From the UHGV virus genome UHGV-0135730: a stretch of DNA of 54,321 nt. One strand, written 5' to 3'. Shown one piece after another: positions 36,287-49,912 of the stretch. The notes under the pieces were generated by a model, which worked only from the letters and a program-made list of their open reading frames with translations, made no database searches and was not told the origin of the DNA. The position numbers and the translations under genes were made by a program. How positions within the stretch are numbered: the first letter of the stretch is position 1; each line of letters starts with the position of its first letter. The stretch comes from a virus.

Positions 36287-36298
36287 GAGGTTAACGAA

Positions 36299-36646: not shown

Positions 36647-36655
36647 GGCGGCAAC

Positions 36656-37034: not shown

Positions 37035-37062
37035 TAACCCCGCTTCTCGCGGGGTCGTGTTT
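37035..37062. terminator. Bidirectional terminator hairpin
   Basis: Hairpin CCCCGC-TTCTC-GCGGGG with flanking A/T runs. Confidence 0.55.
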
Positions 37063-37258
37063 ATACGCCATCAACCAAAAATAAAACCTCCTTCCCTTCC
37101 CGGGATCTACACCCCACGTACCCATCGCCAACGTCGTGAAGATACCATATATCGCCGTTGTCAGCTTTTACAGTAAGGTCGTTGATCTCATAGTCGTCAA
37201 ACAATGTAAAAGCGTAAGTTTTGTCAACTACACAAGTCCCGTACATAACAACCCCCAT
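37061..37258 (-). CDS. Hypothetical protein downstream of M
   Basis: 65 aa ORF, start overlaps M stop. Confidence 0.4.
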   Translation of the reverse strand: MGVVMYGTCVVDKTYAFTLFDDYEINDLTVKADNGDIWYLHDVGDGYVGCRSREGKEVLFLVDGV

Positions 37259-37611
37259 TAGCCAACAACTTGTTCAAACGTTGCGTTTAGCGTGTACACA
37301 GGCCCGTCTTTGGTCATGCTCCAGCTACGGCAAACGAAAAGCCTTTGCACCCCGTCGATCGATGGAGTCCAGTAAAACGCCTCGACAGCGCCGCGCGCCC
37401 TCAAAAATGCTTCGGCCTGGATCGCCACGTTTCCACCATCACCACATCCCGCGCTACTGCCTTTGAAAACCAGGGTGTAACTATCAAGCAACGTGTTAAT
37501 CCCTTTCGCCTGGCGCTGTTCATAACCATCACCAAGTTTAACGACAGACACATTTGGTTCCCTGGTCACGCTGTAGCTTCTTTGCGGCGTCCATCTGAAA
37601 ACTTCTGGCAT
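37258..37611 (-). CDS. Minor tail protein M-like
   Basis: 117 aa; position after tape measure; GGGGG RBS. Confidence 0.65.
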   Translation of the reverse strand: MPEVFRWTPQRSYSVTREPNVSVVKLGDGYEQRQAKGINTLLDSYTLVFKGSSAGCGDGGNVAIQAEAFLRARGAVEAFYWTPSIDGVQRLFVCRSWSMTKDGPVYTLNATFEQVVG

Positions 37612-37639
37612 GATTCCCCCTATAAGTTACATATTGCAT

Positions 37640-37668
37640 ACATCTTTACGCGCCTCTACGCGAAAAAT
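37640..37668 (-). promoter_or_regulatory. Conserved 29-nt element upstream of M (second copy at portal start)
   Basis: Minus strand ATTTTTCGCGTAGAGGCGCGTAAAGATGT; near-identical to 49853-49881. Confidence 0.45.
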
Positions 37669-37739
37669 GAGAAATTCATCACAAGAATTATAACCAGTTT
37701 ACAAAATGGCTTCACATAAGGCGTGACAAGATGTATATA
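37668..37739 (+). promoter_or_regulatory. CRP-like site plus TACAAAATGG-type promoter for cargo cassette
   Basis: TGAGAAATTCATCACA (37668-37683); GTTTACAAAATGGC then TTCACA-17-TATATA (37711-37739). Confidence 0.5.
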
Positions 37740-37779
37740 GTAAGCAAGAAGAAAAAGCAGTACCGACAAGGGGGGCAAT

Positions 37780-37935
37780 ATGGAACGCTATGTGGTTGTG
37801 ATGCTGAACAAAGCATTCGAACAGGTGGAAGTTGCGATTGTGAAGGGCTTTGATGATGCATTCAAATACGGTCAATTCATGATGAATGCAAAAGAAGATG
37901 AATACCGTGATTTCTTCCTGAAAGTGGTCAACTAA
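37780..37935 (+). CDS. Hypothetical small protein (cargo cassette)
   Basis: 51 aa ORF. Confidence 0.45.
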   Translation: MERYVVVMLNKAFEQVEVAIVKGFDDAFKYGQFMMNAKEDEYRDFFLKVVN

Positions 37936-37953
37936 TGGATTGCGGGGTGGGTT

Positions 37954-38208
37954 ATGAAATTGGTAATGATTGGTAAAAACCTGAAAGCACAGAAAAACGC
38001 ACAGGACCGGATCATCAAAAAGGGCAAGGCTTTATTAAATGCTTTCCTGAAAAAAGAGGCCAACCCCAAAAAATTACGCGATGGCTACGGTTATAAATTT
38101 GACATCAACCCCGATTGGCGGTTATTCAGCGAAGATTTAAAGATGTGGTTAATTATTGACCACCTGGAATATAACAGGCACTGTGGGGTGAAAGGTGCTC
38201 ACAAGTGA
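37954..38208 (+). CDS. Hypothetical basic protein (cargo cassette)
   Basis: 84 aa ORF. Confidence 0.5.
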   Translation: MKLVMIGKNLKAQKNAQDRIIKKGKALLNAFLKKEANPKKLRDGYGYKFDINPDWRLFSEDLKMWLIIDHLEYNRHCGVKGAHK

Positions 38209-38239
38209 CACGGATTTGAATGTTGCGGAGGAAAACAAA

Positions 38240-38410
38240 ATGAAAAATCCGGCAAATAAAAGCAACGTAAAACGCATAGCCTGGGTGCTAAAATATATGG
38301 ATAGTAAAGGGGATACATATACATGCCCATTTTTCAGGTATACTGACGCGGTATTTGCCAGAAGTGTACACGGAGGGAAAATTGAGAGAGGATATACAAG
38401 ATTTGAGTAA
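38240..38410 (+). CDS. Hypothetical small protein (cargo cassette)
   Basis: Start at MKNPANK with GGAGG RBS. Confidence 0.45.
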   Translation: MKNPANKSNVKRIAWVLKYMDSKGDTYTCPFFRYTDAVFARSVHGGKIERGYTRFE

Positions 38411-38448
38411 ATTTATTCACGAAATCAATAACATGACGAAGGTTAACA

Positions 38449-38628
38449 ATGGTTATTCATGAGACTGAAGAATGCAGAAGTATTAATCTTAGTATTGAAG
38501 ATGACGGGAGATTATGGATCGTTAGCGACTGCGAGATGATTGTAATAGACCAAAAGCAAGCTGACGAACTAATAAGAGCATTACAGCTTTATGCAAACGG
38601 CGAATTTAAAAATGATGAAATTGAATAA
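38449..38628 (+). CDS. Hypothetical small protein (cargo cassette)
   Basis: 59 aa ORF ending at terminator. Confidence 0.45.
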   Translation: MVIHETEECRSINLSIEDDGRLWIVSDCEMIVIDQKQADELIRALQLYANGEFKNDEIE

Positions 38629-38632
38629 AGAT

Positions 38633-38665
38633 AACCCCGGCATTGTACCGGGGTTTTGTTTATTT
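38633..38665. terminator. Bidirectional rho-independent terminator
   Basis: Hairpin CCCCGG-CATTGTA-CCGGGG followed by TTTTGTTTATTT. Confidence 0.7.
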
Positions 38666-41008
38666 CCTGCGAGGTTGCAACATTCCTCCGGGTCGTTGCG
38701 ATTCCCTTGCCATCATTTTCATCGCGACGCGTTCCATCGTCTGTTCAAGTCTGCGACTGTCTTCGTCGCTAAATCCGTTTGTGGTCTGTACGGTGATGTT
38801 AACAGGCATATTGATGCCGCCGCCGCTGAAGAGATCACGGCCAGGAATTACCCTACCATTCTCGCCAGGAATCATATACTGACGCCCGTTGCTCGTCTGG
38901 AATAGCTCTGGGATTCCGTGCTCACCTACGCGATACAGGCTGCCACCATTAACAGAACCACCATTATAACGCCCGCCACCAAAGATTGACGTTGCCAGCG
39001 ACATGATCGCAGAAAGCGCCGCAGCACCAGCCGCCGCCCAGCTACCACCAGTTGACGCCGCAGTCGCCGCCGCCGCTGGGGCCGCCGCCGCTGCAATCTG
39101 GCCTTGTGCCGCTACTGCGCCAGCCGTTGTACTTGCCTGGGTAGCCTTGCTTTGCGTTTCCATCATCAATTGATCTGCTATCCAGTTAGCGGCAATTTCT
39201 GACAGTTTGTTGCCAACGGTGTTAAGTATGCTACTTCCCAGGTTGGCGAAAACCTCGCTTAATGATTGAGTGCCGTTTAGCAGTCCGGTAAGGGCATTAC
39301 CCATGCCACCCTTCAGGCCGCTGACGCACGCACCAATCAGGCCGTTTGTTTCGCTTTGCGCCTGCCATTGTTCCCATTTCAGATCTCTGATCTGTTGTTC
39401 ATATTCCAATAGCGCCTGTTTCTGTTGCGCCTCTGTAGCGCCCAAGTCTATCAGCATTTGTTTGCGAACGGCCCATTCATTTTGTGCCTGCTTGATTGGG
39501 TCAATTTCTCCCTTAAGCTGGTCCATCGGGCTGACTATGTGATCCCATTTGTCGCGTAGCTCATCAACAGGGATTTGCGCCAATTCGTCCTTCAGTTCCT
39601 TGCCTATCCCTTTCTGCGCGGCCTTGTACTCAAGTAGGGTTATTTTGCCCTGGGCGAATGCAGCTTCAATGGCCTTGCCGTTCTCTAATGCTTTGCGCAT
39701 AGCGGCGGCGTCCTTGTTGTACTGGTCGGACACTTTTATGCCTTCATCACCAAGCCGATCAGCTTCAGATTTCTTGTCCTTTTTGCCCTTTTTCCCTTTT
39801 TTAGGCTTACCGACTGGCTGATCGAATCCGGTGATCTTGCCATCGTCAGCCTCATCCTGTTTCTGCATTAACTCATCATAGGCGGCGGTCGCGTTTTTAA
39901 TGTCGTTTGCAAACGTCATGACTTTGCCGACGGTGGGGCCAAATTTTTTCTCGTTGTTGCTGTTTAGCTCTTCCTTGCGTTTATCGACGATCTCCTTCAT
40001 CCACTTGTAACCATCCATTAGCGCTTTGATTGGCGTTACCATTTTGATGATTTCTTCCGCCACCTCACCAGCCTTAACAGCAACGTCGTCAAACATGTCG
40101 ATGAACTCGTTACCAGCGGTTTTAAGTGTGTTGAAACAGGTTGCGGCGAATTTTGCGCCTTTACCCAATCCCTCAACGCCACCAGTGATTAAGTCTATTG
40201 CTGTTACAACGCCGTCAGATATGCCGAAAAGATCATCAAGCTGTTCGACAAGTCCCATAACCTCAACTTTAAGCTCGTTGAAGGCCATGCCGGATGTGCG
40301 AGGCAACTGCGCAAACTTCTCGTTTGTTTCCTGCGTAGCGGCCTGGATCGCGTTAAGCATCCTTTCAGCCGTGATCTTGCCGTCCAGCATTTCAGCGCGG
40401 AACTGACCCATAGACAACCCCATTTGGCGGGCCATTTCCTGTATGATTGTTGGTGTGTTGTCACGTATTGAGTTAAATTCCTCAGCCTGCAACACGCCAG
40501 CATCAATAGCCTGGCGGAACTGAAGCATGGAGTTTGATAGTTGTTCCGCAGACACGCCGCCCAGGTTGCCGAGTTTTTGCAGCGTGCTAACCAGGTTGAG
40601 TACCTGGCCTTCTGTAGCGGATGTGTTTTTTAGCGATATAGCAAGACCTTGCCACAGGGCACCAGTATCCTTGAGGCTTTGGCCTGTTTCTTTTGATATA
40701 TCTTTCAGTCTGTTGAAAACACGTTCCGTGGCCTCCGCTTCACCTGTAAGCAGTTTGATTTTTACGCGAAGCATTTTCGCTTGCTCCGCCATGTCAATAA
40801 ACTGGCGTACAGCCTCCGCAGCAAGTAGCAAATGGATAACCCTGGATAGCGCTTTGATTGAAGTCTTAAGCGTGTTCACCTGGCGGTCAGCGCGTTTTGC
40901 GCCACGCTCGATGCTGTCAAAAGCCTGGTCTGCCTGTCGTTGAGCAACGAGAAGTTGACCAGTTTTTGCATCAACTTCGTAGTAAATTGTACCTAAACTA
41001 GTTGCCAT
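38660..41008 (-). CDS. Tail tape measure protein
   Basis: 782 aa, coiled-coil rich with Gly/Ala-rich segment; between chaperone and M. Confidence 0.85.
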   Translation of the reverse strand: MATSLGTIYYEVDAKTGQLLVAQRQADQAFDSIERGAKRADRQVNTLKTSIKALSRVIHLLLAAEAVRQFIDMAEQAKMLRVKIKLLTGEAEATERVFNRLKDISKETGQSLKDTGALWQGLAISLKNTSATEGQVLNLVSTLQKLGNLGGVSAEQLSNSMLQFRQAIDAGVLQAEEFNSIRDNTPTIIQEMARQMGLSMGQFRAEMLDGKITAERMLNAIQAATQETNEKFAQLPRTSGMAFNELKVEVMGLVEQLDDLFGISDGVVTAIDLITGGVEGLGKGAKFAATCFNTLKTAGNEFIDMFDDVAVKAGEVAEEIIKMVTPIKALMDGYKWMKEIVDKRKEELNSNNEKKFGPTVGKVMTFANDIKNATAAYDELMQKQDEADDGKITGFDQPVGKPKKGKKGKKDKKSEADRLGDEGIKVSDQYNKDAAAMRKALENGKAIEAAFAQGKITLLEYKAAQKGIGKELKDELAQIPVDELRDKWDHIVSPMDQLKGEIDPIKQAQNEWAVRKQMLIDLGATEAQQKQALLEYEQQIRDLKWEQWQAQSETNGLIGACVSGLKGGMGNALTGLLNGTQSLSEVFANLGSSILNTVGNKLSEIAANWIADQLMMETQSKATQASTTAGAVAAQGQIAAAAAPAAAATAASTGGSWAAAGAAALSAIMSLATSIFGGGRYNGGSVNGGSLYRVGEHGIPELFQTSNGRQYMIPGENGRVIPGRDLFSGGGINMPVNITVQTTNGFSDEDSRRLEQTMERVAMKMMARESQRPGGMLQPRRK

Positions 41009-41027
41009 GATTTAACCTCATGAAAAT

Positions 41028-41089
41028 TGTGATCTAGATCTCTATTCTATACAAAATGGCTTCAGTTCAACGAATACATTTTGTATAAA
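41028..41089 (+). promoter_or_regulatory. CRP-like site plus TACAAAATGG-type promoter for cargo cassette
   Basis: TGTGATCTAGATCTCT (41028-41043) centred about 60 bp upstream of predicted start; TATACAAAATGGC then TTCAGT-17-TATAAA. Confidence 0.5.
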
Positions 41090-41165
41090 GAAGATAAAAG
41101 AAAGGGATAGAGCGAAGGGACTTAAAAGGCCGGATTAACCGGAGGAAGCAAAAGAGGATAAGAAA

Positions 41166-41255
41166 ATGAAAAACGTAAACTACCACCCCAACGAGCATGA
41201 GCGTTATGCCGACTTCATCAAAGAAATGTTGAAAGCACTTAAAAACAAAAACTAA
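41166..41255 (+). CDS. Hypothetical small protein (29 aa)
   Basis: MKNVNYHPNEHERYADFIKEMLKALKNKN; precedes secreted-protein gene. Confidence 0.35.
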   Translation: MKNVNYHPNEHERYADFIKEMLKALKNKN

Positions 41256-41267
41256 GCGGGGTGAGTT

Positions 41268-41684
41268 ATGAAACGGTTAATTAGAGCGGCAATGATGGCG
41301 GTAATGGTTGGTTTGGCATTCAACGCAAATGCAAACGATGTAATAAATATAAACTGCGATGAAGTAGCAAATAACGTTGCCGAATACCATAAAATTTTCA
41401 AGAAGGAACCCGCAGCCATCAAGGTTTTTTATAAAGCAATTGACAAGCATTTCGAAGGTAAACCAGTTTATGCAAGATGGTTTAATTATGGGCTTGTGAA
41501 GGAGGCTGCTGTAGGTGTCGTATTCGAAGGTAACAATGAAATAAGAAACAGAATAGCCAACGAGTGCAACGCTGATAAAGCCGCATTTGCTGAAAGAATA
41601 TTTAACGAAGGCGGCGCGGGTGTTAAAAATCATGCTATCGTTGATTTAGGTAACGGCAGAATTGAAATTGTAAGGATCAGATAA
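41268..41684 (+). CDS. Secreted protein of unknown function (cargo)
   Basis: Cleavable signal peptide MKRLIRAAMMAVMVGLAFNANA; own promoter and terminator on opposite strand. Confidence 0.6.
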   Translation: MKRLIRAAMMAVMVGLAFNANANDVININCDEVANNVAEYHKIFKKEPAAIKVFYKAIDKHFEGKPVYARWFNYGLVKEAAVGVVFEGNNEIRNRIANECNADKAAFAERIFNEGGAGVKNHAIVDLGNGRIEIVRIR

Positions 41685-41708
41685 TGAGCACTATCAAAAA
41701 GCATCATC

Positions 41709-41733
41709 GACATATAACGCCCGGTTCTACCGG
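41709..41733 (+). terminator. Rho-independent terminator after secreted-protein gene
   Basis: Hairpin GCCCGG-TTCTA-CCGGGC followed by TTTTTCTT. Confidence 0.7.
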
Positions 41734-42413
41734 GCTTTTTCTTGCTCGCGTTTTTTCATCAATTCCAGCACCCTTTTAGCCGCTCCCATTTGCTCATCAT
41801 AATCACGTTTATTTATATGAACGTTTGGTTTACCTTTCTCGTTTCTTTCGTCTGGCGGCGTTTTAGCGCGTACAGCGGCCCTATATCCGGTCATTGTCAT
41901 GCCCCACGCTTCAGATTCAGACAATCCCAAGTGAGCAACGGCGGAGTAAACATACTCAAGGATGTCGAATGTTGGCTTGTACTCACCTTCCTGGTTTGTG
42001 ACCGTGTCTTCTTCTGGACCGTCACCAATTAAACCGTGATACATACAGTGTTGCGCCAGCGTGATAACGTCGCTGGTGGGCATCAATCCCGGTTTCATTC
42101 TCAACTTACCCGAAGGAGTAAAGCTGCATTCGCCCAATAACGGGCCTATTTCGCATTCTGAGCAACATTTCAGTACGTGGATGGACGTTTGCACCAGTTC
42201 ACCATAACAACGCGCCAGAATGCGATTGCGGAGGTCTGAATCAGTTGGCAAACGTTGTGGGTATCTGCCACCGTGCACCGTTGCGAAGTATTCTACCAGC
42301 TCCCTGTCGCTGCCGATCTTAGCCATTGCAGCAAAGCAGGGATTGAACTCGTAACGTCTGCCATCAACCACAACCGCAAATTGTCCTGTTCGAACATGGA
42401 TCATAACTGTCAC
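41727..42413 (-). CDS. Tail assembly chaperone-like protein
   Basis: Position between major tail and tape measure; basic C-terminus; no frameshift site identified. Confidence 0.4.
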   Translation of the reverse strand: MTVMIHVRTGQFAVVVDGRRYEFNPCFAAMAKIGSDRELVEYFATVHGGRYPQRLPTDSDLRNRILARCYGELVQTSIHVLKCCSECEIGPLLGECSFTPSGKLRMKPGLMPTSDVITLAQHCMYHGLIGDGPEEDTVTNQEGEYKPTFDILEYVYSAVAHLGLSESEAWGMTMTGYRAAVRAKTPPDERNEKGKPNVHINKRDYDEQMGAAKRVLELMKKREQEKAR

Positions 42414-42458
42414 CCTAAAAATAAAGGGGCCAAATGGCCCCGATGTTAATATTTACTG

Positions 42459-42935
42459 TTACATTGACGGAACGTCACCTACTGTGACCTTGCCAGCGCT
42501 TTCGCACTCAATGGACCAGGTGGACACATCGTCGTGCGGATCTTCTTCTTTAAAGGAGGTGCAAAGGAATGGGCCTTCGGTTACGTCGAGCGGGGAAACA
42601 AGTTTTAGCCAGACGTAAGGCTGCGCACCAGTTGTTTCGCCAGGGTTAATAACGTGGCGTTTAAGTGCTTTCTGGTTGTGGATCTCTTCGGTGCGGGATA
42701 CGCCGTCGCCGGAGAAAGAAACGGACTTGTAAGTTACCATTGATTCTTTGGTATAGTCTGCTGATTTATCAGCGGTGGCGTCTGCAGTTTCCCATTCTAC
42801 GGAAAGCGATTTGCCACGCATCATACCTAACGCTTTATAAGCGCTTTCTTCAGGTTTCGCATTAGGGCAAGCGATAGCGTAAAATGCGGCAACGTCGCGG
42901 CCTAAGAACGAACCTTTATCACAAGTCTGAGACAT
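42459..42935 (-). CDS. Major tail protein
   Basis: 158 aa, position upstream of chaperone/tape measure. Confidence 0.6.
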   Translation of the reverse strand: MSQTCDKGSFLGRDVAAFYAIACPNAKPEESAYKALGMMRGKSLSVEWETADATADKSADYTKESMVTYKSVSFSGDGVSRTEEIHNQKALKRHVINPGETTGAQPYVWLKLVSPLDVTEGPFLCTSFKEEDPHDDVSTWSIECESAGKVTVGDVPSM

Positions 42936-42948
42936 GTTTAGTTACCTC

Positions 42949-43335
42949 TTATCTTGATATGATGGTTTGGAAAGCTACGGTGAAGATGAAGCGCCCTTCC
43001 CTTGTCTGCATTGCAGGAATCGCGCCAATTGGTTTCATGTGTGTAATTTTATCAGTTTTGTATTCGGTTATCATACTCTGGCGTATTGCGTCGGCGAGAT
43101 CTTCCACTTCACTGATATTTGCGTCATTCCGCGCTGAAATAACCAGGATGCGAAAATAGTCACGGGTTACTGCTTCTTCACCAGCCGCACCGCCGTTTTG
43201 CTGTATGACAATATATCTGCTGTTATTCGAATTGGATCGCTCATTCCAGAAACGGGCCTGCAAAATATAACCTTCGTCGTACCCGTGGGATTTAATCCAA
43301 TCCCTTATTTCGTCATATACTTCGCTGCGTTTCAT
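42949..43335 (-). CDS. Tail completion / neck protein
   Basis: 128 aa, position between head-tail joining genes and major tail. Confidence 0.45.
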   Translation of the reverse strand: MKRSEVYDEIRDWIKSHGYDEGYILQARFWNERSNSNNSRYIVIQQNGGAAGEEAVTRDYFRILVISARNDANISEVEDLADAIRQSMITEYKTDKITHMKPIGAIPAMQTREGRFIFTVAFQTIISR

Positions 43336-43805
43336 GATTGTTTCGTCCAGTACCCAAGTTTAATCGTGTTCCAGATCTCATTGAAATTATCTGGTTCCTC
43401 GAACGCCTTGCGCAAAAATTCAGGTTCCGCGTTTGGATCCCAGTAATAACCCTTCCCAGTACCGCCGCCGAACTCAACTACCTGTTTCGGGCCGAAATCT
43501 GAAAGGTTATTGGTTTTCCCGAAATGCTCGCGAGGCTGTCCCATTAATGTCCCCGGCATGTCATGCACCCATTCAGCATAGCGGGCGGTATATCCAACCA
43601 TGAGACAAAGGCCGTTACCGTTTTTCTCGACAGTCTGGTACATGCTGTTAATTAAAAAACCCGTATCAACTGGCGTCATTCCAGATGCAAGGCCGGACGC
43701 GACATTGCCAACAATCCATAGCACTTCATAAGTCTTTTTGTCTGCTATGTTCCTGATTTCTTCCGTCATTTTCATACGGACGCGTTTGACGCCTTTCAGT
43801 GGCAT
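43332..43805 (-). CDS. Head-tail joining protein (HK97 gp10-like)
   Basis: 157 aa; size and position consistent with HK97 gp10 family. Confidence 0.5.
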   Translation of the reverse strand: MPLKGVKRVRMKMTEEIRNIADKKTYEVLWIVGNVASGLASGMTPVDTGFLINSMYQTVEKNGNGLCLMVGYTARYAEWVHDMPGTLMGQPREHFGKTNNLSDFGPKQVVEFGGGTGKGYYWDPNAEPEFLRKAFEEPDNFNEIWNTIKLGYWTKQS

Positions 43806-43807
43806 GA

Positions 43808-44182
43808 TTAACCTCCTGTGACGATCTTATAATCCGGCGTGTCGTTAAACATACTCATGTCCCATTCAACGATCCCAGTTATAAAGTTGGCCCCAGCCGC
43901 CAGCGGGTCAGAAATAGCAGTGGTGTCACCAGTGGCAAGCATCCATCCTTTTTCCGGGAGCTGCACTGGCTGCATCTTGTGAAGCAGTTCGGTATATACG
44001 GTTATCGTGTTGCTAACCTCATTCCCGTTTGCGTCTGTTGCGGTTCCGTCAGTACGCTCCCATGCACAATCTACCAGGTATGGCGCACCGTATACGTCGG
44101 AGTTTGTCCAGTCGTCACGCGTTACGGGGTAAATGGTGGCTAATGCCTTGTAACTGAATCTCGCGATCTTACTCATAGCCAT
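43808..44182 (-). CDS. Head closure / head-tail adaptor protein
   Basis: 124 aa, position. Confidence 0.45.
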   Translation of the reverse strand: MAMSKIARFSYKALATIYPVTRDDWTNSDVYGAPYLVDCAWERTDGTATDANGNEVSNTITVYTELLHKMQPVQLPEKGWMLATGDTTAISDPLAAGANFITGIVEWDMSMFNDTPDYKIVTGG

Positions 44183-44354
44183 AGCTCCATTTAACGATTT
44201 TCGGATGGGTTTTCGCCACTCGCGGGCATAGAATTACCCATTCGCCAGCGTCATTGAGATAGGCCGCCACCTGTCGCCCGGTGTCAGTCTTCACCCACAC
44301 GCGAGTAAACAGTTTCGGCAATAGCGGATCCGGTAATGTCAGGTCGTTCCACAT
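44169..44354 (-). CDS. Hypothetical small structural-module protein
   Basis: 61 aa ORF. Confidence 0.35.
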   Translation of the reverse strand: MWNDLTLPDPLLPKLFTRVWVKTDTGRQVAAYLNDAGEWVILCPRVAKTHPKIVKWSYGYE

Positions 44355-44356
44355 TG

Positions 44357-44743
44357 TTACATCCTCCCGCTTTTACCTATCCAAAGCCCAGCGTGCGCGG
44401 TATTTTCTGGATCTGGTGGGATCAGTTCGGCTGTACAGTGATGTTTATCAAGGGAGTAAAGCAACGAGTAGGCTGCCTTCCATTTTTTATTGAAATCGAC
44501 ATAGCGGTATGACTGGCTTGCACCGTTAGGACCAGTTTGCGAGGAAACGTACTTGTTAGCCTGGGTAAGTCCTAACAGGCCAATAAGATAAAGTTGAATC
44601 AATGTTGCACTGGAGGCCGGATAGTTGGCATCAAGGCATTCATTAACGCTGTTTGCCTGCTCCACCAGCAAGGATAAGATAACGTCTGGCAGGTCAATAC
44701 CCTGGCTTTCAAGATATTCCCGCGCCTGTTCTGTAGTGACCAT
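44357..44743 (-). CDS. Head-tail connector-like protein
   Basis: Start at MVTTEQ (GGAG RBS); first ATG of the ORF lies inside the terminator hairpin. Confidence 0.45.
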   Translation of the reverse strand: MVTTEQAREYLESQGIDLPDVILSLLVEQANSVNECLDANYPASSATLIQLYLIGLLGLTQANKYVSSQTGPNGASQSYRYVDFNKKWKAAYSLLYSLDKHHCTAELIPPDPENTAHAGLWIGKSGRM

Positions 44744-44761
44744 TTTGTTTGCTCCACATAC

Positions 44762-44790
44762 AAAAAAAATCCCCGGCATCGCGCCGGGGA
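44762..44790 (-). terminator. Rho-independent terminator after major capsid gene
   Basis: Hairpin TCCCCGGC-ATCGC-GCCGGGGA followed on minus strand by TTTTTTTT. Confidence 0.75.
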
Positions 44791-44808
44791 GTTACAGGAA
44801 ATGCGAAA

Positions 44809-45861
44809 TTATTTGTGACCGTAAACGACACCGGAACGGCCCAGCATGTCGCAGGTGATTTGTAAACCTTCGGCAGACATGATTTTGAAATTGTAGTTAT
44901 CGGTAGGCATGGTGCGCGGCAGAGGCACTACGCCAGTAGTCATACCAACCAGCGGGGTAATGACGTTGCGGCGGCGTTGATAGGCAATGAACTCGTTGCC
45001 TTTCAGTGCATAGGTCTGACGGATCTCTTTAACCGGAATGAACGGTTTAACGATATTCAGAACACTGCCTACGACAGTCCCGTTTGCAATGTGCGGCGCT
45101 GCCAGGTTAGCCATAATTTCAGGTGACACCCACATGAGATCATACTGGTCAACGCGGTTGTTGCGGGCCATAACACCGAATGCACCAGTGGTGAAGAATT
45201 TGATGAGAGCATCGAATCCGTCAGTGGTGAGATCTTCGGAGGTCATGACTAGTTGCTGGGTATTGCGGTGATTTTTAATACCCTGGCCCGGTTTACCGTT
45301 GACGTTGATTTTTGCGTTACCGTTAAGGTAATACTCAACGCGGGCCTTGTTGAATTTTTGCAGTTTCAGGCGCTGGCTATCCAGTGCAAGGTCAATACCC
45401 ACAGTTTTCAGACCCTCGGAATGACGCCAGCTGACACCGTAACCCGCTGCGAACATCGGGATCGGGTCGCCATCGCTGCCATATTCAGTGTGATCGAAGC
45501 CATGCGGGGCTTGACCATCGATACTAACGACAACCTCATCGTTAATATCACCGGATACGCTGTACATTTTCTCGGTTTTACCGATTGGCAATACGGTTTG
45601 CACAGCCATCAAATCGTTTACGATTTCAATGCCAGTCTCTTCGGTGCTCATTTCGATAATCTGGTTATCGACAGCTTTCCAGAACTCCTGATCGAAGCCG
45701 CCAACGGCATTACATGCCAGGATGTCAGCGGTCATGTTTGCCATATTTGCGGCAATAAGAGCGCCGTCCTGCTCATTGAACATGTTGCGCTGCGCCCAAA
45801 GGTGATCCCACTGGGCACGAATGCGGCTGTTGGTAGCAAGGTTGTGTTTATTAAACAACAT
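44809..45861 (-). CDS. Major capsid protein
   Basis: 350 aa, followed by strong terminator, preceded by decoration and scaffold genes. Confidence 0.7.
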   Translation of the reverse strand: MLFNKHNLATNSRIRAQWDHLWAQRNMFNEQDGALIAANMANMTADILACNAVGGFDQEFWKAVDNQIIEMSTEETGIEIVNDLMAVQTVLPIGKTEKMYSVSGDINDEVVVSIDGQAPHGFDHTEYGSDGDPIPMFAAGYGVSWRHSEGLKTVGIDLALDSQRLKLQKFNKARVEYYLNGNAKINVNGKPGQGIKNHRNTQQLVMTSEDLTTDGFDALIKFFTTGAFGVMARNNRVDQYDLMWVSPEIMANLAAPHIANGTVVGSVLNIVKPFIPVKEIRQTYALKGNEFIAYQRRRNVITPLVGMTTGVVPLPRTMPTDNYNFKIMSAEGLQITCDMLGRSGVVYGHK

Positions 45862-45880
45862 AGTTTTTCACCTCTTATTA

Positions 45881-46291
45881 TTATGCAACGCGGACACGTA
45901 CAAAATCAGCCGCTTCAAGGGTTACAGTTTCCTGGCAGAAAGCGAAAACCGGATCGGCAGATTCACCAGTTGCTGCGACCTTAAAGCCATCAGCACCAAT
46001 GGTGATACCAGCGTCTTTGGTGTAAGTGCCAGTCGGAAGCAGGATTGCGAATTCGCGCCCTTCTTCTGCGTAGTCAGCGACCACGGAATGACCAACCGGG
46101 ATCGCATCTTCAATGCCTAATCCTTCATGGTATGCTGGATTAACAACATAAATACGGCCTACGGTATCGGTGGCGGCAACGAATTTACCAGCCGTCATTT
46201 TTACCGGGGTACCTGGTTTAAGCTCTGCGGCAGATACTGCGGTTTCGGTAATAGATTTACCGTCAATATTCACACGACGAAAACGGGCCAT
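45881..46291 (-). CDS. Head decoration-like protein
   Basis: 136 aa, immediately upstream of capsid gene. Confidence 0.4.
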   Translation of the reverse strand: MARFRRVNIDGKSITETAVSAAELKPGTPVKMTAGKFVAATDTVGRIYVVNPAYHEGLGIEDAIPVGHSVVADYAEEGREFAILLPTGTYTKDAGITIGADGFKVAATGESADPVFAFCQETVTLEAADFVRVRVA

Positions 46292-46301
46292 AATTCACCT
46301 C

Positions 46302-47588
46302 TTATGCGAAATAGTTGTTAATGTCAGGGGTGGCAGGTTTATTTCCACCAGCGGCGGAGTTTGCTGCCATTGGTGCTGCTTTACCCAGAGATTTAAACAT
46401 TGCTTCTAACGCTTCCCCACTTAATGCGTTAGCAACAATTTCGCCGTGTACTTTCGCAACTGCGGCGCGTTTTTCTGCTACTTCTTTATTTGCGTTTGCT
46501 GCGATCTCTTCTTTAATCGCTTTTTGATTGGTCTGTAATTCTTCAACGCTTGCCTGTACTGGTTTAAGCGCTTCAGCGATTGCATTAGCCATATTTGCAG
46601 TGATGCTTTCGTTAATTTCTTTTACCAGTTCGGCGCGTTCTTCTTTGGTCAAAGGCATGGGATCGTCCTCCGATTTATTGGCCTTAATTTTTTCGTTTAA
46701 TGAGAAAAGATTGGATAGGTGTTCAGCGAACTGAGCGAACCAGGATTTACCTTCCTCATTGGTTGCAAGCTCGCCATTATTGAGAATTATTTTATCAGCC
46801 TGTTTTTCATACGTGCAAACTTGAGCATTTTCAGCGTTAGTAGCAATCGTCACTTCTTTATCAGTGAAGTCCACGACATAGACATAATCTGCATCGGGGA
46901 ACAGTTTACGCGCCGCTTCCTCAAGTTGTCTTTCAAGCGTGCGATAGCTGTTTTCTTTCATTGCCACCGCCATTAATGGCTTCGCCTGGTCAGTGTTAAC
47001 CATCAGGCCAACGCCCTGTTCAGGCGATGCGGCTGGCGGTTCATGCAATAAGATAGCGTCATGGTCAATCGACATAATTTTGACAACGCTGTCAGCACCC
47101 TGTGCTTTCATCTCTTCAGTAGCTGGCATGCGCTGACGATATACGGCAACAGATGACCAGATCGGATCTTTGCTTTCGCCTTTTTCCAGTGCTTCCAGTC
47201 GGCTTAATAATTCGCGGCCTTGTTCTGAATGGCTGGCGGTTTCCACATCCACCCATTTTTCCACATAAACACGGTTGCCGCGTAATTCAACATTTCTGTT
47301 CCACGCTCCACAAAAGCCAATATTCAGACCTTCCGGGCTAAATGCGGAAACAAATTCACCGTCAACCGTAGGATGGCCCAGCGGTGCGAGCGTGCCTTCC
47401 AGAGATTGATAATTAGCAATGATTTCGGCTTCCGGGTAATATTCCCGATTCATAACGATATTGAAGGGCAACGTATAAGACGGGACCACAATATGTTCGC
47501 GCCCGTTATATGTTTCCCGGCGGATGGTATTAGCGGTTAATTTGGTATTAACCTGAATCAGTTCTTTACTCACGGTTTTTACTCCCAA
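46302..47588 (-). CDS. Scaffolding / prohead protease-like protein
   Basis: 428 aa, coiled-coil Ala/Glu/Lys-rich C-terminal half; position between head morphogenesis and capsid genes. Confidence 0.45.
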   Translation of the reverse strand: MGVKTVSKELIQVNTKLTANTIRRETYNGREHIVVPSYTLPFNIVMNREYYPEAEIIANYQSLEGTLAPLGHPTVDGEFVSAFSPEGLNIGFCGAWNRNVELRGNRVYVEKWVDVETASHSEQGRELLSRLEALEKGESKDPIWSSVAVYRQRMPATEEMKAQGADSVVKIMSIDHDAILLHEPPAASPEQGVGLMVNTDQAKPLMAVAMKENSYRTLERQLEEAARKLFPDADYVYVVDFTDKEVTIATNAENAQVCTYEKQADKIILNNGELATNEEGKSWFAQFAEHLSNLFSLNEKIKANKSEDDPMPLTKEERAELVKEINESITANMANAIAEALKPVQASVEELQTNQKAIKEEIAANANKEVAEKRAAVAKVHGEIVANALSGEALEAMFKSLGKAAPMAANSAAGGNKPATPDINNYFA

Positions 47589-48523
47589 TCTTCGCCATAT
47601 TTAGCGTGCGCAACTTTATAGTTTTCTTGCGCCCGATCTAATATTCGTTTGTTTAATATATTACCGTCTTCGTCAACTAATACGGTAATCGTGCTACATT
47701 TGCAGTTAATTGAATTAGGGGATTTGCTCCACCATTCGCGCTGCTCTTCTATGGTGTACGTTTTCCCGTGTCGCTGTGCGTGTGACAGCCTGGTAGTCGG
47801 TGACAATGCCGAAATATGCATCTGCATAGTGCGCAAGTTAAGCTCATCCGATGCGGCCTCTGCCTCATCCATACGCGCTGTGCGTAACGCTGTGCATATT
47901 TCAGTACGGGCAATACGTTTGCACCTGTATAGCGGCAATTGCGTTTCCTGCTGCAATGTGCGCGCTATTTCCAGTGGGTTTAGGCCACGGGCCATGCCTT
48001 CGGTTAATCGGCGGGCCATATCCTTCTTGATCTGTGCGGTAAGACCGCGCATCTCTTCAAATACACGGGTACGGACCAGGGCAAGGCGCGTGCGATAGGT
48101 CTGACTGGTTAATACTGCCGACACTTCAGGATAAGCCCTGGAATATGTGACTGACTGGTTAGCGAGGTTGGCATATTCCTGAGAAGTGCCGCGCTGATAT
48201 GCCACCTTCACGTATTCCTGCCAGAACCAGAAGTTTTCCGGGTCTGTTAACTCGAATATTTCATCAATCATGACGCTGGCGTCTTCCAGCAAATCATGCA
48301 ATTCGTCAATGTAGATCTGGAAGGTGTATTTCTTGTTAACAGCCAGGCTATATTGCATCCTGTCCAGTATGGCGATATACGGATCCGCAACTTTCTTCAG
48401 GCAGGTTTTAAAACGCTTGATAGCTCCCGACCGTAACTTACCTGTCATGGTCGGGTCTTCGGTGTTAGATGGCATTATCGCGGCTGGAGGTATTCGCCTG
48501 ATTATCTTCTTCACCCTCATCAT
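47579..48523 (-). CDS. Head morphogenesis protein (Mu F-like)
   Basis: 314 aa following portal; strong GAGGAGG RBS at first ATG; 3' overlap with portal. Confidence 0.55.
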   Translation of the reverse strand: MMRVKKIIRRIPPAAIMPSNTEDPTMTGKLRSGAIKRFKTCLKKVADPYIAILDRMQYSLAVNKKYTFQIYIDELHDLLEDASVMIDEIFELTDPENFWFWQEYVKVAYQRGTSQEYANLANQSVTYSRAYPEVSAVLTSQTYRTRLALVRTRVFEEMRGLTAQIKKDMARRLTEGMARGLNPLEIARTLQQETQLPLYRCKRIARTEICTALRTARMDEAEAASDELNLRTMQMHISALSPTTRLSHAQRHGKTYTIEEQREWWSKSPNSINCKCSTITVLVDEDGNILNKRILDRAQENYKVAHAKYGEDWE

Positions 48524-49835
48524 CGTCCTCCTCTTCCGTTTCTACTTCACTGGCTGGGCCATCGTATCCGGCAGCCTCGCGGATCTCGTCACCGCTAAAT
48601 ATTTCTTCACCAGTAGCCAGACAAGCCTGATTGATTTGTGCCATTTTGTATGCCGCTTCCAGTAGTTCGGCTTTGGTCATAGCGTTCAGGTCGTCCCATA
48701 TCACTGATACGTCTACTGGCATACTGATAAGGCGTAGCGCTGCCATCTTGCTAAACAGATCTTCAAGCTCACCCCCGATTTCCTCCCTGCGAGTCATACA
48801 GCGGCTGTTGAAGTAGCGGAGGTCTTCGGTTGATGCGCGTTCGCCCTGCTGGTTCCCAACCAGGATGCGGGTCGGAATATCAATACCAGCGGCGGCGGTT
48901 TGCAGGTTGACGTCATAGGTTGCTGACGGGTCAGATACGGCAGTCACCAGCGGGCTTACTGTCGCCCCTTGTAATGCCATCATCACGTCGTTACCCTTAT
49001 TCATTTCAGCCGCTGCCTCATTGAATCTTTCTCGCAGCTCTGTGACGTCGCAATCGTATGTTGCAGCCAGGGAGCGGAAGTCGATTTCCTTATCGAATGA
49101 GATAGCAAGCTGGCGGGCGGCGTTTTTCAGGAATGATTCACCGCTACCCCCTTCCACCTTCTCAAGTGACACAAAGGCGTTATAGGACGGTTCAAGGAAA
49201 GCGATGGCATCATCAGAATAGTCGCCAAAGATGAAAATACGGTCAGGGTGGATCCTTCTTGCTATGGTCTTACTGTTAATGCGTTCTTTGTATTCCCACC
49301 ACGTCGGCAGGCCATAGTTTTCACTGTTTGGGTCTTCTTCGAACTCCTTCGGCGTAAGCGCACCAGCCCATACCGGGGTAAATTTGGCAATGCCTACGCC
49401 TTTTGTGACTGGCTTATCCCACGGCTGGTTATCTCTGACATGAATCAACAGGCCAGCATAACGACCGATGAGGCGGCGGCGGTCACATTCGGCAATGGTG
49501 CGCCAAAATCTGTTGTCGAATTGTTTCTTGATTTCTCTTTCCCAGGGTGTTTCCTTTTCGGCTTTCTCGTCTTCGGTTCCCTCGATTAGCGTTGGCATGG
49601 TTCGCCAGCAAGTGGTAACAATCTTCTCAACAGCACCGTGAGCGATACCACCGCGCCTGTACAGTTTGTATAGATCGTCGTACGTGATCTCTTCTTTGAA
49701 TCCGTATTCACTCCATGCAGCATCGCGTTTGGCATCTATCCCCATAGTGAATGGGTGGGCTGCGGCATAGCGGGCATATGCAGCCTGGCGTTGAGACAAG
49801 GCAGCATTAACCGCCAATTCTAAATTGGATGGCAT
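48465..49835 (-). CDS. Portal protein
   Basis: Follows terminase large subunit; acidic C-terminal tail; start reassigned to ATG 49835 (AGGAG RBS). Confidence 0.65.
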   Translation of the reverse strand: MPSNLELAVNAALSQRQAAYARYAAAHPFTMGIDAKRDAAWSEYGFKEEITYDDLYKLYRRGGIAHGAVEKIVTTCWRTMPTLIEGTEDEKAEKETPWEREIKKQFDNRFWRTIAECDRRRLIGRYAGLLIHVRDNQPWDKPVTKGVGIAKFTPVWAGALTPKEFEEDPNSENYGLPTWWEYKERINSKTIARRIHPDRIFIFGDYSDDAIAFLEPSYNAFVSLEKVEGGSGESFLKNAARQLAISFDKEIDFRSLAATYDCDVTELRERFNEAAAEMNKGNDVMMALQGATVSPLVTAVSDPSATYDVNLQTAAAGIDIPTRILVGNQQGERASTEDLRYFNSRCMTRREEIGGELEDLFSKMAALRLISMPVDVSVIWDDLNAMTKAELLEAAYKMAQINQACLATGEEIFSGDEIREAAGYDGPASEVETEEEDDDEGEEDNQANTSSRDNAI

Positions 49836-49852
49836 AATGTTTACTCCTGAAT

Positions 49853-49881
49853 ACATGTTTACGCGTTGCTACGCGAAAAAT
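49853..49881 (-). promoter_or_regulatory. Conserved 29-nt element at portal gene start (copy of 37640-37668)
   Basis: Minus strand ATTTTTCGCGTAGCAACGCGTAAACATGT. Confidence 0.45.
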
Positions 49882-49912
49882 AGAAAAACTTGTGGGTAGT
49901 TGTGAGGCAGAT

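What the first reader, a model, noticed from the sequence alone, without database searches (positions are those of the whole stretch)
37640..49881. Conserved 29-nt element precedes two late structural genes (portal and M)
Minus-strand ATTTTTCGCGTAG-NNNN-CGCGTAAA-N-ATGT occurs 29 nt upstream of the M start (37640-37668) and overlaps the first ATG of the portal ORF (49853-49881), about 18 nt upstream of the RBS-supported portal start. Near-identical 29-mers at two late-gene 5' ends suggest a shared internal promoter, RNA processing site or translational control element.
Basis: seen in the sequence. Interest (0 to 1): 0.5.

Follow-up and report, generated by a model that had tools for sequence, protein, structure and literature searches.

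The report
Conserved leader hairpin before portal and M
A roughly 40-base sequence able to fold into a small hairpin sits just upstream of two late structural genes (portal and tail-tip protein M) of an mEp021-like E. coli phage and is kept almost unchanged in every relative, so it is a real but uncharacterised control element, most likely acting in the messenger RNA rather than as a promoter.

Summary
The window is a near-complete mEp021-like (mEpimmI group) temperate siphophage genome. On the minus strand, a 39-40-nt block occurs exactly twice. One copy lies in the 75-nt gap between the large terminase and portal genes. The other lies in the leader of the lambda-M-like gene. The block reads TTTCT(C)ATTTTT-CGCG-TAG-NNN-CGCG-TAAA-N-ATGTAT-N-CA.

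Both copies are present, in the same places and orientation, in all 7 GenBank relatives and in about 70 metagenomic relatives. Diversity per site is 0.007 and 0.047 in the element, against about 0.18 in adjacent non-coding DNA and 0.27-0.33 at third codon positions. No phage outside this group has it, and Rfam has no match.

The element has no promoter hexamers. At the portal gene it ends 12 nt from the ribosome-binding site, so it must be part of the translated mRNA. It folds as a CGCG/CGCG stem extended by U-run/A-run pairing. Natural variants keep the fold through G·U changes, a free 3' half of the loop and a 1-nt loop deletion. True covariation is absent.

The best reading is a sense-strand RNA leader element for processing, stability or translational control. 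A DNA operator remains possible. It is a new element of a familiar kind and of moderate interest.

The parts
37635..37674 (-). M-site copy of the element: TTTCTC ATTTTT CGCG TAGAGG CGCG TAAAGATGTATGCA. The stem arms are 37662-37659 and 37652-37649. The loop is 37658-37653.
   Evidence: Conserved in all relatives. The hairpin is the minimum-free-energy fold at -11.9 kcal/mol, z = -2.6.
49848..49886 (-). Portal-site copy of the element: TTTCT ATTTTT CGCG TAGCAA CGCG TAAACATGTATTCA. The stem arms are 49875-49872 and 49865-49862. The loop is 49871-49866. The copy contains the first in-frame ATG (49856-49854) of the portal ORF.
   Evidence: The stem is invariant in 49 IMG/VR loci and 7 GenBank phages. 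The core hairpin has -6 kcal/mol.
37687..37715 (-). Promoter-like block upstream of the M-site copy: GTGAAG (37715-37710), a 17-nt spacer, then TATAAT (37692-37687). It ends 18 nt before the element and is not shared with the portal site.
   Evidence: Sequence. TATAAT is invariant and GTGAAG nearly invariant in 25 distinct relatives. The block falls below the scan threshold because the first hexamer matches only 3/6.
37258..37611 (-). Lambda-M-like minor tail (tail-tip) protein gene, 117 aa. The GGGGG ribosome-binding site is at 37620-37616.
   Evidence: Pfam Phage_min_tail, E = 2e-29; PHROG 14.
37061..37258 (-). 65-aa ORF with a start that overlaps the M stop codon, followed by an intrinsic terminator. 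Its function is unknown.
   Evidence: PHROG 3249. Homologues also occur in Rtp/T1-like phages that lack the element.
48465..49835 (-). Portal gene, 456 aa counted from the ATG backed by the ribosome-binding site. AGGAG is at 49848-49844.
   Evidence: Pfam Phage_portal_3, PHROG 146.
49913..51397 (-). Large terminase gene. Its TAA stop (49915-49913) lies 31 nt upstream of the start of the 29-nt core of the portal-site copy (49881).
38633..38655 (.). Bidirectional intrinsic terminator immediately after the tape-measure gene. It separates the head/tail-shaft genes from the antisense island and from M.
   Evidence: The equivalent terminators are annotated in the relatives.
37780..38628 (+). Island of small ORFs between the tape-measure gene and M, on the opposite strand to the late genes. 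It includes a 51-aa ORF and an 84-aa ORF with a ParE-like toxin domain. It is transcribed away from the element.
   Evidence: The content of the island differs between relatives while the element stays the same (L120 and L121 have a different neighbour).

Best explanation
The element is a cis-acting signal in the sense-strand late mRNA, not a promoter.

**Proposed structure.** It is transcribed as part of the leader of the portal and M cistrons. It folds into a small stem-loop: a 4-bp CGCG/CGCG core, a 6-nt loop UAGNNN, and an extension in which the 5' U-run pairs with the 3' UAAA(N)RU.

**Proposed function (inferred).** The stem-loop controls expression of the downstream cistron after transcription. 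The mechanism I consider most likely has two steps:
1. The long Q-antiterminated late transcript (and the transcript from the M-proximal promoter) is cut in the A/U-rich run just 5' of the stem. AU|UUU fits the RNase E preference as I recall it.
2. The hairpin then forms a base-paired 5' end that stabilises the downstream message and insulates the ribosome-binding site from upstream RNA.

This would set portal and M output independently of terminase and of the antisense read-through RNA.

**A close variant.** The same hairpin could be the operator for a sequence-specific RNA-binding factor that adjusts translation of both cistrons. The invariant unpaired bases (U19, A20, G21, U29, A38, C41 of alignment A1) argue that something reads the sequence and not only the fold.

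**What is shown and what is inferred.**
- Shown: existence, copy number, position, orientation, conservation, and compatibility with the fold.
- Inferred: that the element acts as RNA, the cleavage step, and the effect on stability or translation.
For: 1. **Exactly two copies per genome.** This holds in the window and in all 7 GenBank relatives. Both copies have the same orientation as the gene they precede, 12 and 24 nt upstream of the ribosome-binding site.
2. **Strong purifying selection**:
   - Portal site: per-site diversity 0.007 in the element, 0.177 in the 30 nt upstream, 0.271 at codon position 3.
   - M site: 0.047, 0.18 and 0.334 for the same three classes.
3. **At the portal gene there is no room for a promoter downstream of the element.** No promoter or terminator pattern was found at either site. 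The element must therefore lie in the translated mRNA.
4. **The hairpin is the predicted minimum-free-energy fold of every natural variant tested**, at -6 to -12 kcal/mol.
5. **Variants retrieved without requiring the motif respect the fold**:
   - The 3' half of the loop varies freely, with 7 different triplets.
   - One lineage has a 1-nt loop deletion.
   - Seven distinct sequence variants at 4 stem positions (columns 9, 15, 25, 34 of alignment A1) turn Watson-Crick pairs into G·U in the sense RNA. They would be A·C mismatches in the antisense RNA.
   - Only one variant breaks a pair.
   - 93% of cells pair, against 23-75% when partners are slid by 1-3 columns.
6. **The element stays with the leader when neighbours change.** An HNH endonuclease gene is inserted between the leader and M in L083. 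A 75-nt insert lies upstream of the portal-site block in 14 loci. The antisense neighbour differs in L120 and L121.
Against: - **No genuine covariation.** Only one pair (8-36) has changes on both sides, and that pair is unpaired in 13 of 38 sequences. Shuffles reach the observed scores. The clade is shallow, so the fold is compatible with the data but not demonstrated.
- **The hairpin is weak at the portal site.** The fold has z = -1.6, or 0.3 in 91 nt of context.
- **The same bases can be read two other ways:**
  - as a DNA inverted repeat, TTTWCGCG-N6-CGCGWAAA;
  - as a 10-bp-spaced direct repeat, CGCGTAR-N3-CGCGTAR. This would also explain why TAG in the 'loop' is conserved, and why both C-to-T variants hit position 1 of the repeat unit.
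- **No trans-acting factor was identified, and there are no expression or 5'-end data.**
- **A 5' stabiliser alone does not obviously need the conserved loop bases.**
Confidence: 0.5

Rival explanations
1. The element is a DNA operator, acting as a transcriptional roadblock. A phage-encoded (or host) DNA-binding protein would bind either the inverted repeat TTTWCGCG-N6-CGCGWAAA or the direct repeat CGCGTAR-N3-CGCGTAR. Binding would block RNA polymerase from entering the portal and M genes, for example in the lysogen or early in infection. This would work like the orientation-dependent stoperators of Cluster A mycobacteriophages.
For: - The element shows good two-fold and direct-repeat symmetry.
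- At the M site it lies about +12 to +40 downstream of a conserved TATAAT, which is a classic repressor position.
- Both copies are in short intergenic gaps and in one orientation.
- The conserved TAG/TAA after each CGCG fits a repeated half-site.
- The stoperator precedent is documented in PMC9283540.
Against: - There is no third copy anywhere in the genome, even with 3 mismatches allowed. In particular there is none in the immunity region or at any regulator's own promoter. The repeats near the repressor gene in the immunity region of mEp021, read by eye (TTGCATCA-like), are unrelated to the element.
- A 1-nt deletion in the spacer is tolerated in one lineage. That would change half-site phasing.
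- The substitutions seen are biased towards those that keep RNA pairing, 7 to 1.
- The neighbouring TA-like antitoxin candidate is not linked to the element.
Confidence: 0.2
2. The element is a nut-like or put-like RNA loading site for an antitermination factor. Candidates are the N-like Gp17 or another RNA-polymerase modifier. The site would renew terminator read-through at the start of the head module and at the M operon.
For: - The hairpin has boxB-like size: a 4-5-bp G+C stem and a purine-rich loop.
- This phage group uses an N-like protein with three nut sites (PMC11893012).
- Several intrinsic terminators lie downstream of each copy.
- An identical sequence at two sites is what a shared RNA-binding factor would need.
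Against: - There is no boxA. The group's own nut sites, which I located by eye in mEp021 from the positions given in PMC11893012, read TGCTCTTTAA, GCTCTTTAA and CGCTCATTAACAA. The element has only TTTCTCATTTTT or TTTTCTATTTTT directly abutting the stem.
- The loop sequences differ from those boxB loops and vary freely in their 3' half.
- The late operon already has a Q-type antiterminator (Pfam Antiterm).
- The partial match to the element near the putative late promoter is not conserved in mEp021 and is not significant.
Confidence: 0.08
3. The element is part of an internal late promoter, either the promoter core or an activator site.
For: - It sits at the 5' end of two gene blocks.
- The M copy lies next to a conserved TATAAT.
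- The portal copy is preceded by TAAAAT-like and CACAAT-like hexamers in most relatives.
- Late promoters of P1, P2 and Mu carry activator sites instead of a -35 (from memory).
Against: - There is no -35/-10 pair within the shared block, and the scans were negative.
- The portal copy ends 12 nt before AGGAG, so initiation downstream of it would yield an mRNA without a ribosome-binding site.
- The candidate -10 hexamers upstream are not shared between the two sites. They sit at different distances (18 versus 29 nt for TAAAAT) and are degenerate in the window itself (TTAAAT, CACAAC).
- Upstream similarity between the two sites is at most marginal. Local alignment was not significant. Anchored identity was 20/46, p about 0.003 before correction for six tests.
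Confidence: 0.07
4. The element is a duplication relic or recombination linker with no regulatory function. It would be kept similar by gene conversion between the two copies.
For: Loop triplets are sometimes exchanged between the two sites. The portal site carries AAG in L008 and L027, and the M site carries CAA in L062 and L122. In each case the triplet matches the other copy in the same genome. This suggests occasional conversion.
Against: - The element is far more conserved than its flanks and than synonymous sites at both loci.
- It is retained through insertions and neighbour replacements.
- Direct repeats flanking 12 kb of essential genes would favour lethal deletions and give no benefit.
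- The mosaic breakpoints observed do not fall in the element.
Confidence: 0.05

Closest known systems
Start-associated sequences and extended SAS (ESAS) of Cluster K mycobacteriophages (Pope et al. 2011, PMC3203893)
   Same: - Both are short, lineage-specific conserved repeats.
- Both are almost always in one orientation, immediately upstream of start codons of particular genes.
- Both are conserved across a phage cluster even when the neighbouring genes differ.
- ESAS is an imperfect inverted repeat with a variable spacer.
- The function of SAS/ESAS is also unknown and suspected to be translational.
   Different: - SAS overlaps or replaces the ribosome-binding site, whereas this element lies 12-24 nt upstream of it.
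- SAS/ESAS occur about 10-20 times per genome, in the non-structural half. This element occurs twice, before structural genes.
- There is no sequence similarity.
- The ESAS arms did not support an RNA hairpin, whereas variants of this element do keep pairing.
Stoperators of Cluster A mycobacteriophages (L5 gp71-type repressor sites; PMC9283540)
   Same: Both are short sites in intergenic gaps inside transcribed regions, oriented with respect to transcription. They could silence structural genes by blocking elongation.
   Different: - Stoperators share their sequence with the operator at the early promoter and number in the tens. Here there are only two copies and none in the immunity region.
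- Stoperators are 13-14 bp and asymmetric, whereas this element is about 30-40 nt and has dyad symmetry.
Lambda-type nut sites (boxA + boxB), including nutL, nutR1 and nutR2 of mEp021 (PMC11893012)
   Same: Both involve a small G+C-stemmed hairpin with a purine-rich loop in the sense transcript. In both, the same sequence is reused at more than one place in the genome.
   Different: - This element has no boxA.
- It sits directly in front of a ribosome-binding site in the late operon, not downstream of an early promoter.
- The 3' half of its loop is free to vary.
5' stem-loop stabilisers and RNase E or RNase III processing sites in polycistronic phage and bacterial mRNAs (ompA leader, T4 gene 32, T7 intercistronic RNase III sites; from memory, not tested here)
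   Same: Both are an intercistronic hairpin preceded by an A/U-rich single strand, lying just upstream of the cistron whose expression it would set.
   Different: - Those elements are defined by experiment, and none is available here.
- T7 RNase III sites are about 20-bp or longer irregular helices, whereas this stem is 4-12 bp.
- Stabilisers usually do not need conserved loop bases.
Translational operators bound by phage proteins (MS2/Qbeta coat-protein hairpin, T4 RegA, gp32 and gp43 operators; from memory)
   Same: Both are short, sequence-specific RNA hairpins or motifs near a start site, with conserved unpaired bases, that allow one protein to control one or several cistrons.
   Different: - Known operators overlap the ribosome-binding site or the start codon. 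This element ends 12-24 nt upstream of the ribosome-binding site.
- No candidate binding protein was found.

Membership tests
Sigma-70 promoter | A -35-like and a -10-like hexamer 16-18 nt apart, placed so that the transcript includes the ribosome-binding site | tested here: not met
   - The scans found none at either copy.
- The best in-element hexamers lack A at -11 or T at -7.
- At the portal gene the start site would fall inside or after AGGAG.
- A separate GTGAAG-17-TATAAT lies upstream of the M copy only.
Intrinsic terminator | A G+C-rich hairpin followed by a T-run on the transcribed strand | tested here: not met
   On both strands the T-run precedes the stem and an A-run follows it. 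The terminator scan was negative at both copies.
Lambda-type nut site | A boxA (CGCTCTTTA-like) 5' of the hairpin | tested here: not met
   The element has TTTCTCATTTTT or TTTTCTATTTTT. The mEp021 boxA sequences, located by eye from the positions given in PMC11893012, are TGCTCTTTAA, GCTCTTTAA and CGCTCATTAACAA.
Lambda-type nut site | A boxB hairpin with a conserved purine-rich (GNRA-like) loop bound by the N arginine-rich motif | tested here: inconclusive
   A hairpin of similar size is present. However, its loop is UAG followed by a free triplet (AAG, AGG, AAT, AAA, CAA, CTA, CGA). Binding cannot be tested with these tools.
Stoperator-type repressor sites | The same sequence as the operator at the early lytic promoter, present in many copies across the genome | tested here: not met
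   There are only two copies, with up to 3 mismatches allowed. None lies in the immunity region.
Stoperator-type repressor sites | Located in short intergenic gaps and oriented with the direction of transcription | tested here: met
   Both copies are in intergenic gaps and on the coding strand of the downstream gene, in all relatives.
Start-associated sequences (Cluster K SAS/ESAS) | A conserved repeat within a few nucleotides of start codons that overlaps the ribosome-binding-site position | tested here: not met
   The ribosome-binding sites (AGGAG, GGGGG) lie outside the element, 12 and 24 nt downstream of the stem. There is no sequence similarity to GGGATAGGAGCCC.
Any curated RNA family (Rfam 15) | A covariance-model match | tested here: not met
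   There were no hits at the gathering threshold in the whole window. There were none at E <= 10 in 250-300-nt stretches around each copy.
Structured cis-regulatory RNA (generic) | Base pairs supported by compensatory (double-sided) substitutions | tested here: inconclusive
   93% of cells pair and 4 pairs show one-sided G·U changes. Only one weak pair has double changes, and the shuffles are not exceeded. The clade is too shallow to decide.
Dispersed selfish repeat (REP/MITE-like) | Many copies, in both orientations, with variable presence among close relatives | tested here: not met
   There are two copies, in one orientation, at fixed positions in every relative examined.

The most novel reading that the evidence does not exclude
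The two hairpins are operators of a small, dedicated post-transcriptional regulon. A phage-encoded (or co-opted host) RNA-binding factor would recognise the same sequence-specific stem-loop at the first gene of the head module (portal) and at the tail-tip gene M. That would couple or time the synthesis of the two proteins that nucleate or complete assembly intermediates. No such control layer has been described for the late operon of a lambda-style, Q-antiterminated siphophage.
Probability: 0.15. Interest if true: 0.6.

Novelty: new member of a known kind. Interest (0 to 1): 0.35.

Why it matters
Late operons of lambda-style temperate phages are usually described as one long, Q-antiterminated transcript whose protein ratios are set only by ribosome-binding-site strength.

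A sequence-specific leader element shared by just two structural cistrons, and held under selection as tight as second codon positions, points to extra post-transcriptional (or roadblock) control. It occurs in a recently defined and prevalent group of gut coliphages (mEpimmI).

The element also gives a compact, easily mutated target of about 40 nt for testing how such phages balance expression of portal and tail-tip proteins. It is also a diagnostic DNA signature of this phage group.

Tried and rejected
1. **Further or degenerate copies in the window.** I searched with the 30-mer allowing 3 mismatches, with CGCGTA-N-CGCGTA, and with loose hairpin and leader patterns. Only the two copies were found. 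A CGCGTAAATACGCG palindrome at 13880-13893 lies inside a gene and lacks the flanks.
2. **Rfam.** Nothing was found.
3. **Portal and M homologues outside the group.** I examined ES18, Salmonella phage S107, Klebsiella phage RAH1, and the ES18-like IMG/VR loci. Pseudomonas phage BR161a was fetched, but its upstream sequence was not inspected. None of those examined has the element, and ES18 has no analogous repeat between its own portal and M upstream regions. A portal-based scan of species-representative genomes found no relatives.
4. **Extended homology upstream of the two copies, to test for a duplicated promoter.** Local alignment was not significant, and anchored identity was marginal.
5. 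**A link to the Q-dependent late promoter.** GCGTAAAGCCGTAT at 664-677 is a third exact match to the pattern GCGTAAANNNGTAT. It is not conserved in mEp021 (GCCGTAAAGCCGTAT), and alignment of the region to either copy is not significant. I treat it as chance.
6. **The neighbouring TA-like pair, with its antitoxin as binder.** The element lies about 50 nt upstream of the likely plus-strand promoter, persists when that neighbour is replaced, and has a copy at the portal gene where there is no TA pair.
7. **The small ORF after M as a co-occurring factor.** Its homologues occur in Rtp/T1-like phages that lack the element.
8. **Pfam scan for nucleic-acid-binding domains.** I scanned ten ORFs: the ORF between the lysis genes and the small terminase, Q, the two ORFs upstream of Q, and six small ORFs downstream of Q. 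Only Q, RusA and NinG were recognised.
9. **A uORF mechanism.** The ATG inside the element is in frame with portal, but it is lost (ATA) at most M sites.
10. **Literature.** The mEpimmI genome paper does not mention the element. The 2023 Gp17 paper is not in the library.

Full report
**What the window is.** The 54.3-kb window is a near-complete, circularly permuted genome of a temperate siphophage. It belongs to the mEp021-like 'mEpimmI' group of E. coli phages. The 12.8 kb spanning the finding is 86-92% identical to phages mEp010, mEp554, mEp021, mEp044, mEp013, mEp515 and MagusPhagus.

On the minus strand the late-gene order is:
- a Q-type antiterminator at 5103-5831 (Pfam Antiterm);
- small ORFs, a terminator and the lysis genes, which run across the window ends;
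- the small and large terminase genes;
- the portal gene (Pfam Phage_portal_3);
- the head genes, the tail shaft genes and the tape-measure gene;
- a roughly 1-kb island of plus-strand ORFs;
- the lambda-M-like gene (Pfam Phage_min_tail) plus a 65-aa ORF;
- a second plus-strand island;
- then L, K, I and J.

**The observation.** The variable block is 3 nt, not 4. The similarity extends to 40 aligned columns, 37674-37635 versus 49886-49848, with 34 identities and one indel. The block reads TTTCT(C)-ATTTTT-CGCG-TAG-NNN-CGCG-TAAA-N-ATGTAT-N-CA.

With three mismatches allowed, the pattern matches nowhere else in the window, and it never matched in shuffled sequence. Looser searches for hairpins, direct repeats and leader motifs found no third copy.

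**Conservation.** Each of the 7 GenBank relatives has exactly two copies, at the same two places. A pattern scan of IMG/VR returned 88 stretches, and all but three were these two sites in phages of the same group.

That scan required the stem to be present. I therefore also retrieved homologous sites through the M and portal proteins and through an anchor in the M-site promoter block in metagenomes. In these unbiased sets the element is present at every group member.

Per-site nucleotide diversity:

| Region | Portal site | M site |
|---|---|---|
| Element, excluding the free positions | 0.007 | 0.047 |
| 30 nt upstream | 0.177 | 0.18 |
| Third codon positions of the adjacent gene | 0.271 | 0.334 |

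The element is therefore as constrained as second codon positions.

It survives three kinds of change around it:
- insertion of an HNH endonuclease gene between the M leader and M (L083);
- a 75-nt insertion between the terminase stop and the portal-site block, in 14 loci;
- replacement of the antisense neighbour (L120 and L121).

The portal-site block occurs once each in 34 of 5,426 complete E. coli genomes.

Outside the group the element is absent:
- ES18 has the same gene order, including an antisense moron before M. It has neither this element nor any repeat shared between its own portal and M upstream regions.
- Phages S107 and RAH1 have portals 55-60% identical to this one, and the element is absent upstream of them.
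- A blastn search of 50,697 phage records finds only the seven relatives.
- Rfam has no match.

**Why it is not a promoter.** The shared block contains no acceptable -35/-10 pair, and the consensus scans are negative at both sites. At the portal gene the stem ends 12 nt before AGGAG. A transcript that started downstream of the element would therefore have no ribosome-binding site. The element must be part of the mRNA that is translated.

The M site does have a conserved promoter-like block, GTGAAG-17-TATAAT, that ends 18 nt upstream of the element. TATAAT is invariant in 25 distinct relatives. This makes sense because a bidirectional terminator (38633-38655) and an antisense island separate M from the upstream late genes.

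That block is not part of the repeat. Similarity between the two sites upstream of the repeat is at best marginal.

**Structure.** In the sense strand the element folds as a 4-bp CGCG/CGCG stem with a 6-nt loop UAGNNN. The stem is extended by pairing of the 5' AUUUUU with the 3' (U)AAANRU. The fold energy is -11.9 kcal/mol (z = -2.6) at the M site, and about -6 kcal/mol (z = -1.6) for the core at the portal site. Every natural variant tested keeps this fold as its minimum-free-energy structure.

Across 38 distinct sequences, 93% of pair cells are standard pairs, against 23-75% when partners are slid by 1-3 columns. The variants are informative:
- The 3' loop triplet is free (AAG, AGG, AAT, AAA, CAA, CTA, CGA).
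- One lineage has a 1-nt loop deletion.
- Substitutions at four stem positions give G·U in the sense RNA: C to U in the left CGCG, C to U in the right CGCG, A to G at column 34 in four sequences, and A to G at column 9. All of these would be A·C in the antisense RNA. Only one variant breaks a pair.

This bias, the single orientation and the leader position favour an RNA-level role.

The evidence has limits. There is no real double-sided covariation, the shuffles are not exceeded, and the clade is shallow. The same bases can also be read as a DNA inverted repeat, or as a direct repeat CGCGTAR-N3-CGCGTAR with a 10-bp period. The direct-repeat reading would also explain why TAG is conserved in the 'loop'.

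Several unpaired positions are invariant (U19, A20, G21, U29, A38, C41). This suggests that something reads the sequence, not just the fold.

**Mechanism.** The reading I favour (confidence 0.5 for an RNA-level function) is a post-transcriptional leader element. The specific steps below are inferred, not shown:
1. The late transcript is cleaved in the A/U-rich run just 5' of the stem. AU|UUU fits the RNase E preference as I recall it.
2. The base-paired 5' end stabilises the downstream message and insulates its ribosome-binding site.
3. Portal and M output is thereby uncoupled from terminase and from the antisense read-through RNA.

A close variant is an operator for a sequence-specific RNA-binding factor that acts on both cistrons.

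The rivals are:
- A DNA operator or roadblock (0.2). It is weakened by the absence of any third copy, including in the immunity region, and by the tolerated spacer deletion.
- A nut-like antitermination site (0.08). There is no boxA when the element is compared with the group's own nut sites, and a Q protein is already present.
- An internal promoter or activator site (0.07).
- A functionless duplication kept alike by conversion (0.05). Loop triplets do occasionally match the other copy in the same genome, but the selection data argue against neutrality.

**Leads that failed.** A third exact match to GCGTAAANNNGTAT lies just upstream of the putative late promoter (664-677). It is not conserved in mEp021, and the regional alignment is not significant.

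No protein partner emerged:
- The TA-like neighbour is not linked to the element.
- Homologues of the small ORF after M occur in phages that lack the element.
- The unknown late-region ORFs have no recognisable nucleic-acid-binding domains.

The mEpimmI genome paper does not mention the element.

**Comparison with known systems.** The nearest analogues are:
- the start-associated sequences and their inverted-repeat extensions in Cluster K mycobacteriophages (PMC3203893);
- the stoperators of Cluster A mycobacteriophages (PMC9283540);
- nut sites;
- generic 5' stabiliser or processing hairpins;
- translational operators.

The element fails the defining tests for a promoter, a terminator, a nut site, a stoperator, an SAS and any Rfam family. 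It is a new, lineage-specific example of a familiar kind of feature: a gene-start-associated leader element.

**Verdict.** The element is real, strongly conserved and undescribed. It is probably RNA-level, and its mechanism is unproven. Interest is moderate at 0.35.

Noticed in passing
window 37780-38628 (+), terminator 38633-38655: An island of small plus-strand ORFs sits between the tape-measure gene and M, antisense to the late operon. It includes a 51-aa ORF followed by an 84-aa ORF with a ParE-like toxin domain (Pfam PF24732, E = 7e-12). The pair looks like a toxin-antitoxin moron. The island is closed by a bidirectional terminator shared with the tape-measure gene.
   Followed up: partly
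window 36041-36087 (-), upstream of L (ATG 36002): A perfect 18-bp palindrome TACAATATACGTATTGTA (36087-36070) lies in front of the lambda-L-like gene, after a second antisense island (36056-36904, +). It is followed by an extended -10-like TGGTATGAT (36049-36041). This may be an operator plus promoter for the L-K-I-J block or for the divergent island.
   Followed up: no
L083 3668-4508 (IMGVR_UViG_2695420423_000006): A 157-aa HNH endonuclease ORF is inserted exactly between the M leader (element and ATGTAACTTAT retained) and the M gene. A free-standing homing endonuclease is therefore using this leader.
   Followed up: partly
L191 about 1355-1430, and 13 other IMG/VR loci: A roughly 75-nt insertion lies between the large-terminase stop and the conserved portal-site block. 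It contains the palindrome CTTCGAAAAATTTTCGAAG. Homology with the other lineage resumes about 33 nt upstream of the element.
   Followed up: partly
window 48465-49835 (-); RefSeq hits H90-H119: NCBI PGAP names this portal protein 'anti-CBASS protein Acb1 family protein' in most E. coli prophages. Pfam (Phage_portal_3) and PHROG 146 both identify it as a portal protein. This is probably a misleading family name in RefSeq.
   Followed up: partly
window 664-677 (-), with about 585-660: GCGTAAAGCCGTAT lies just upstream of a putative late promoter (TTGTGG-17-TAAAAT). Downstream of that come a short leader and the strong terminator that precedes the holin. It is the only other exact match to the pattern GCGTAAANNNGTAT taken from the 3' half of the element. 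mEp021 has GCCGTAAAGCCGTAT (a direct repeat of GCCGTA) at this position. The resemblance to the element is not significant.
   Followed up: yes
window 52811-53395 (-): A 194-aa ORF lies between the lysis genes and the small terminase. It has an HExxH-type motif (HECAH) and a lysine-rich C-terminal tail. It has no Pfam match.
   Followed up: partly
window 37622-37632 (-): The M leader contains ATGTAACTTAT, which is nearly invariant in relatives. It includes a start-stop pair, ATG-TAA; one relative has ATG-TGA and another GTG-TAA. The UAACUUAU stretch resembles the T7 gene 10 'epsilon' translational enhancer as I recall it. This motif is not present in the portal leader.
   Followed up: no
L001 14600-14640 (mEp021, MH706966.1): In the mEp021 record the portal ATG backed by the ribosome-binding site is replaced (…AACATTATATTGCG…). 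The portal CDS is annotated from the ATG that lies inside the element. All other relatives keep ATGCCATC. This may be a sequencing or annotation difference.
   Followed up: no
L008/L027 and L062/L122/L248: The free loop triplet is occasionally the one typical of the other site: AAG at the portal site, CAA at the M site. In each case it matches the second copy in the same genome, which suggests rare conversion between the two copies 12 kb apart.
   Followed up: partly
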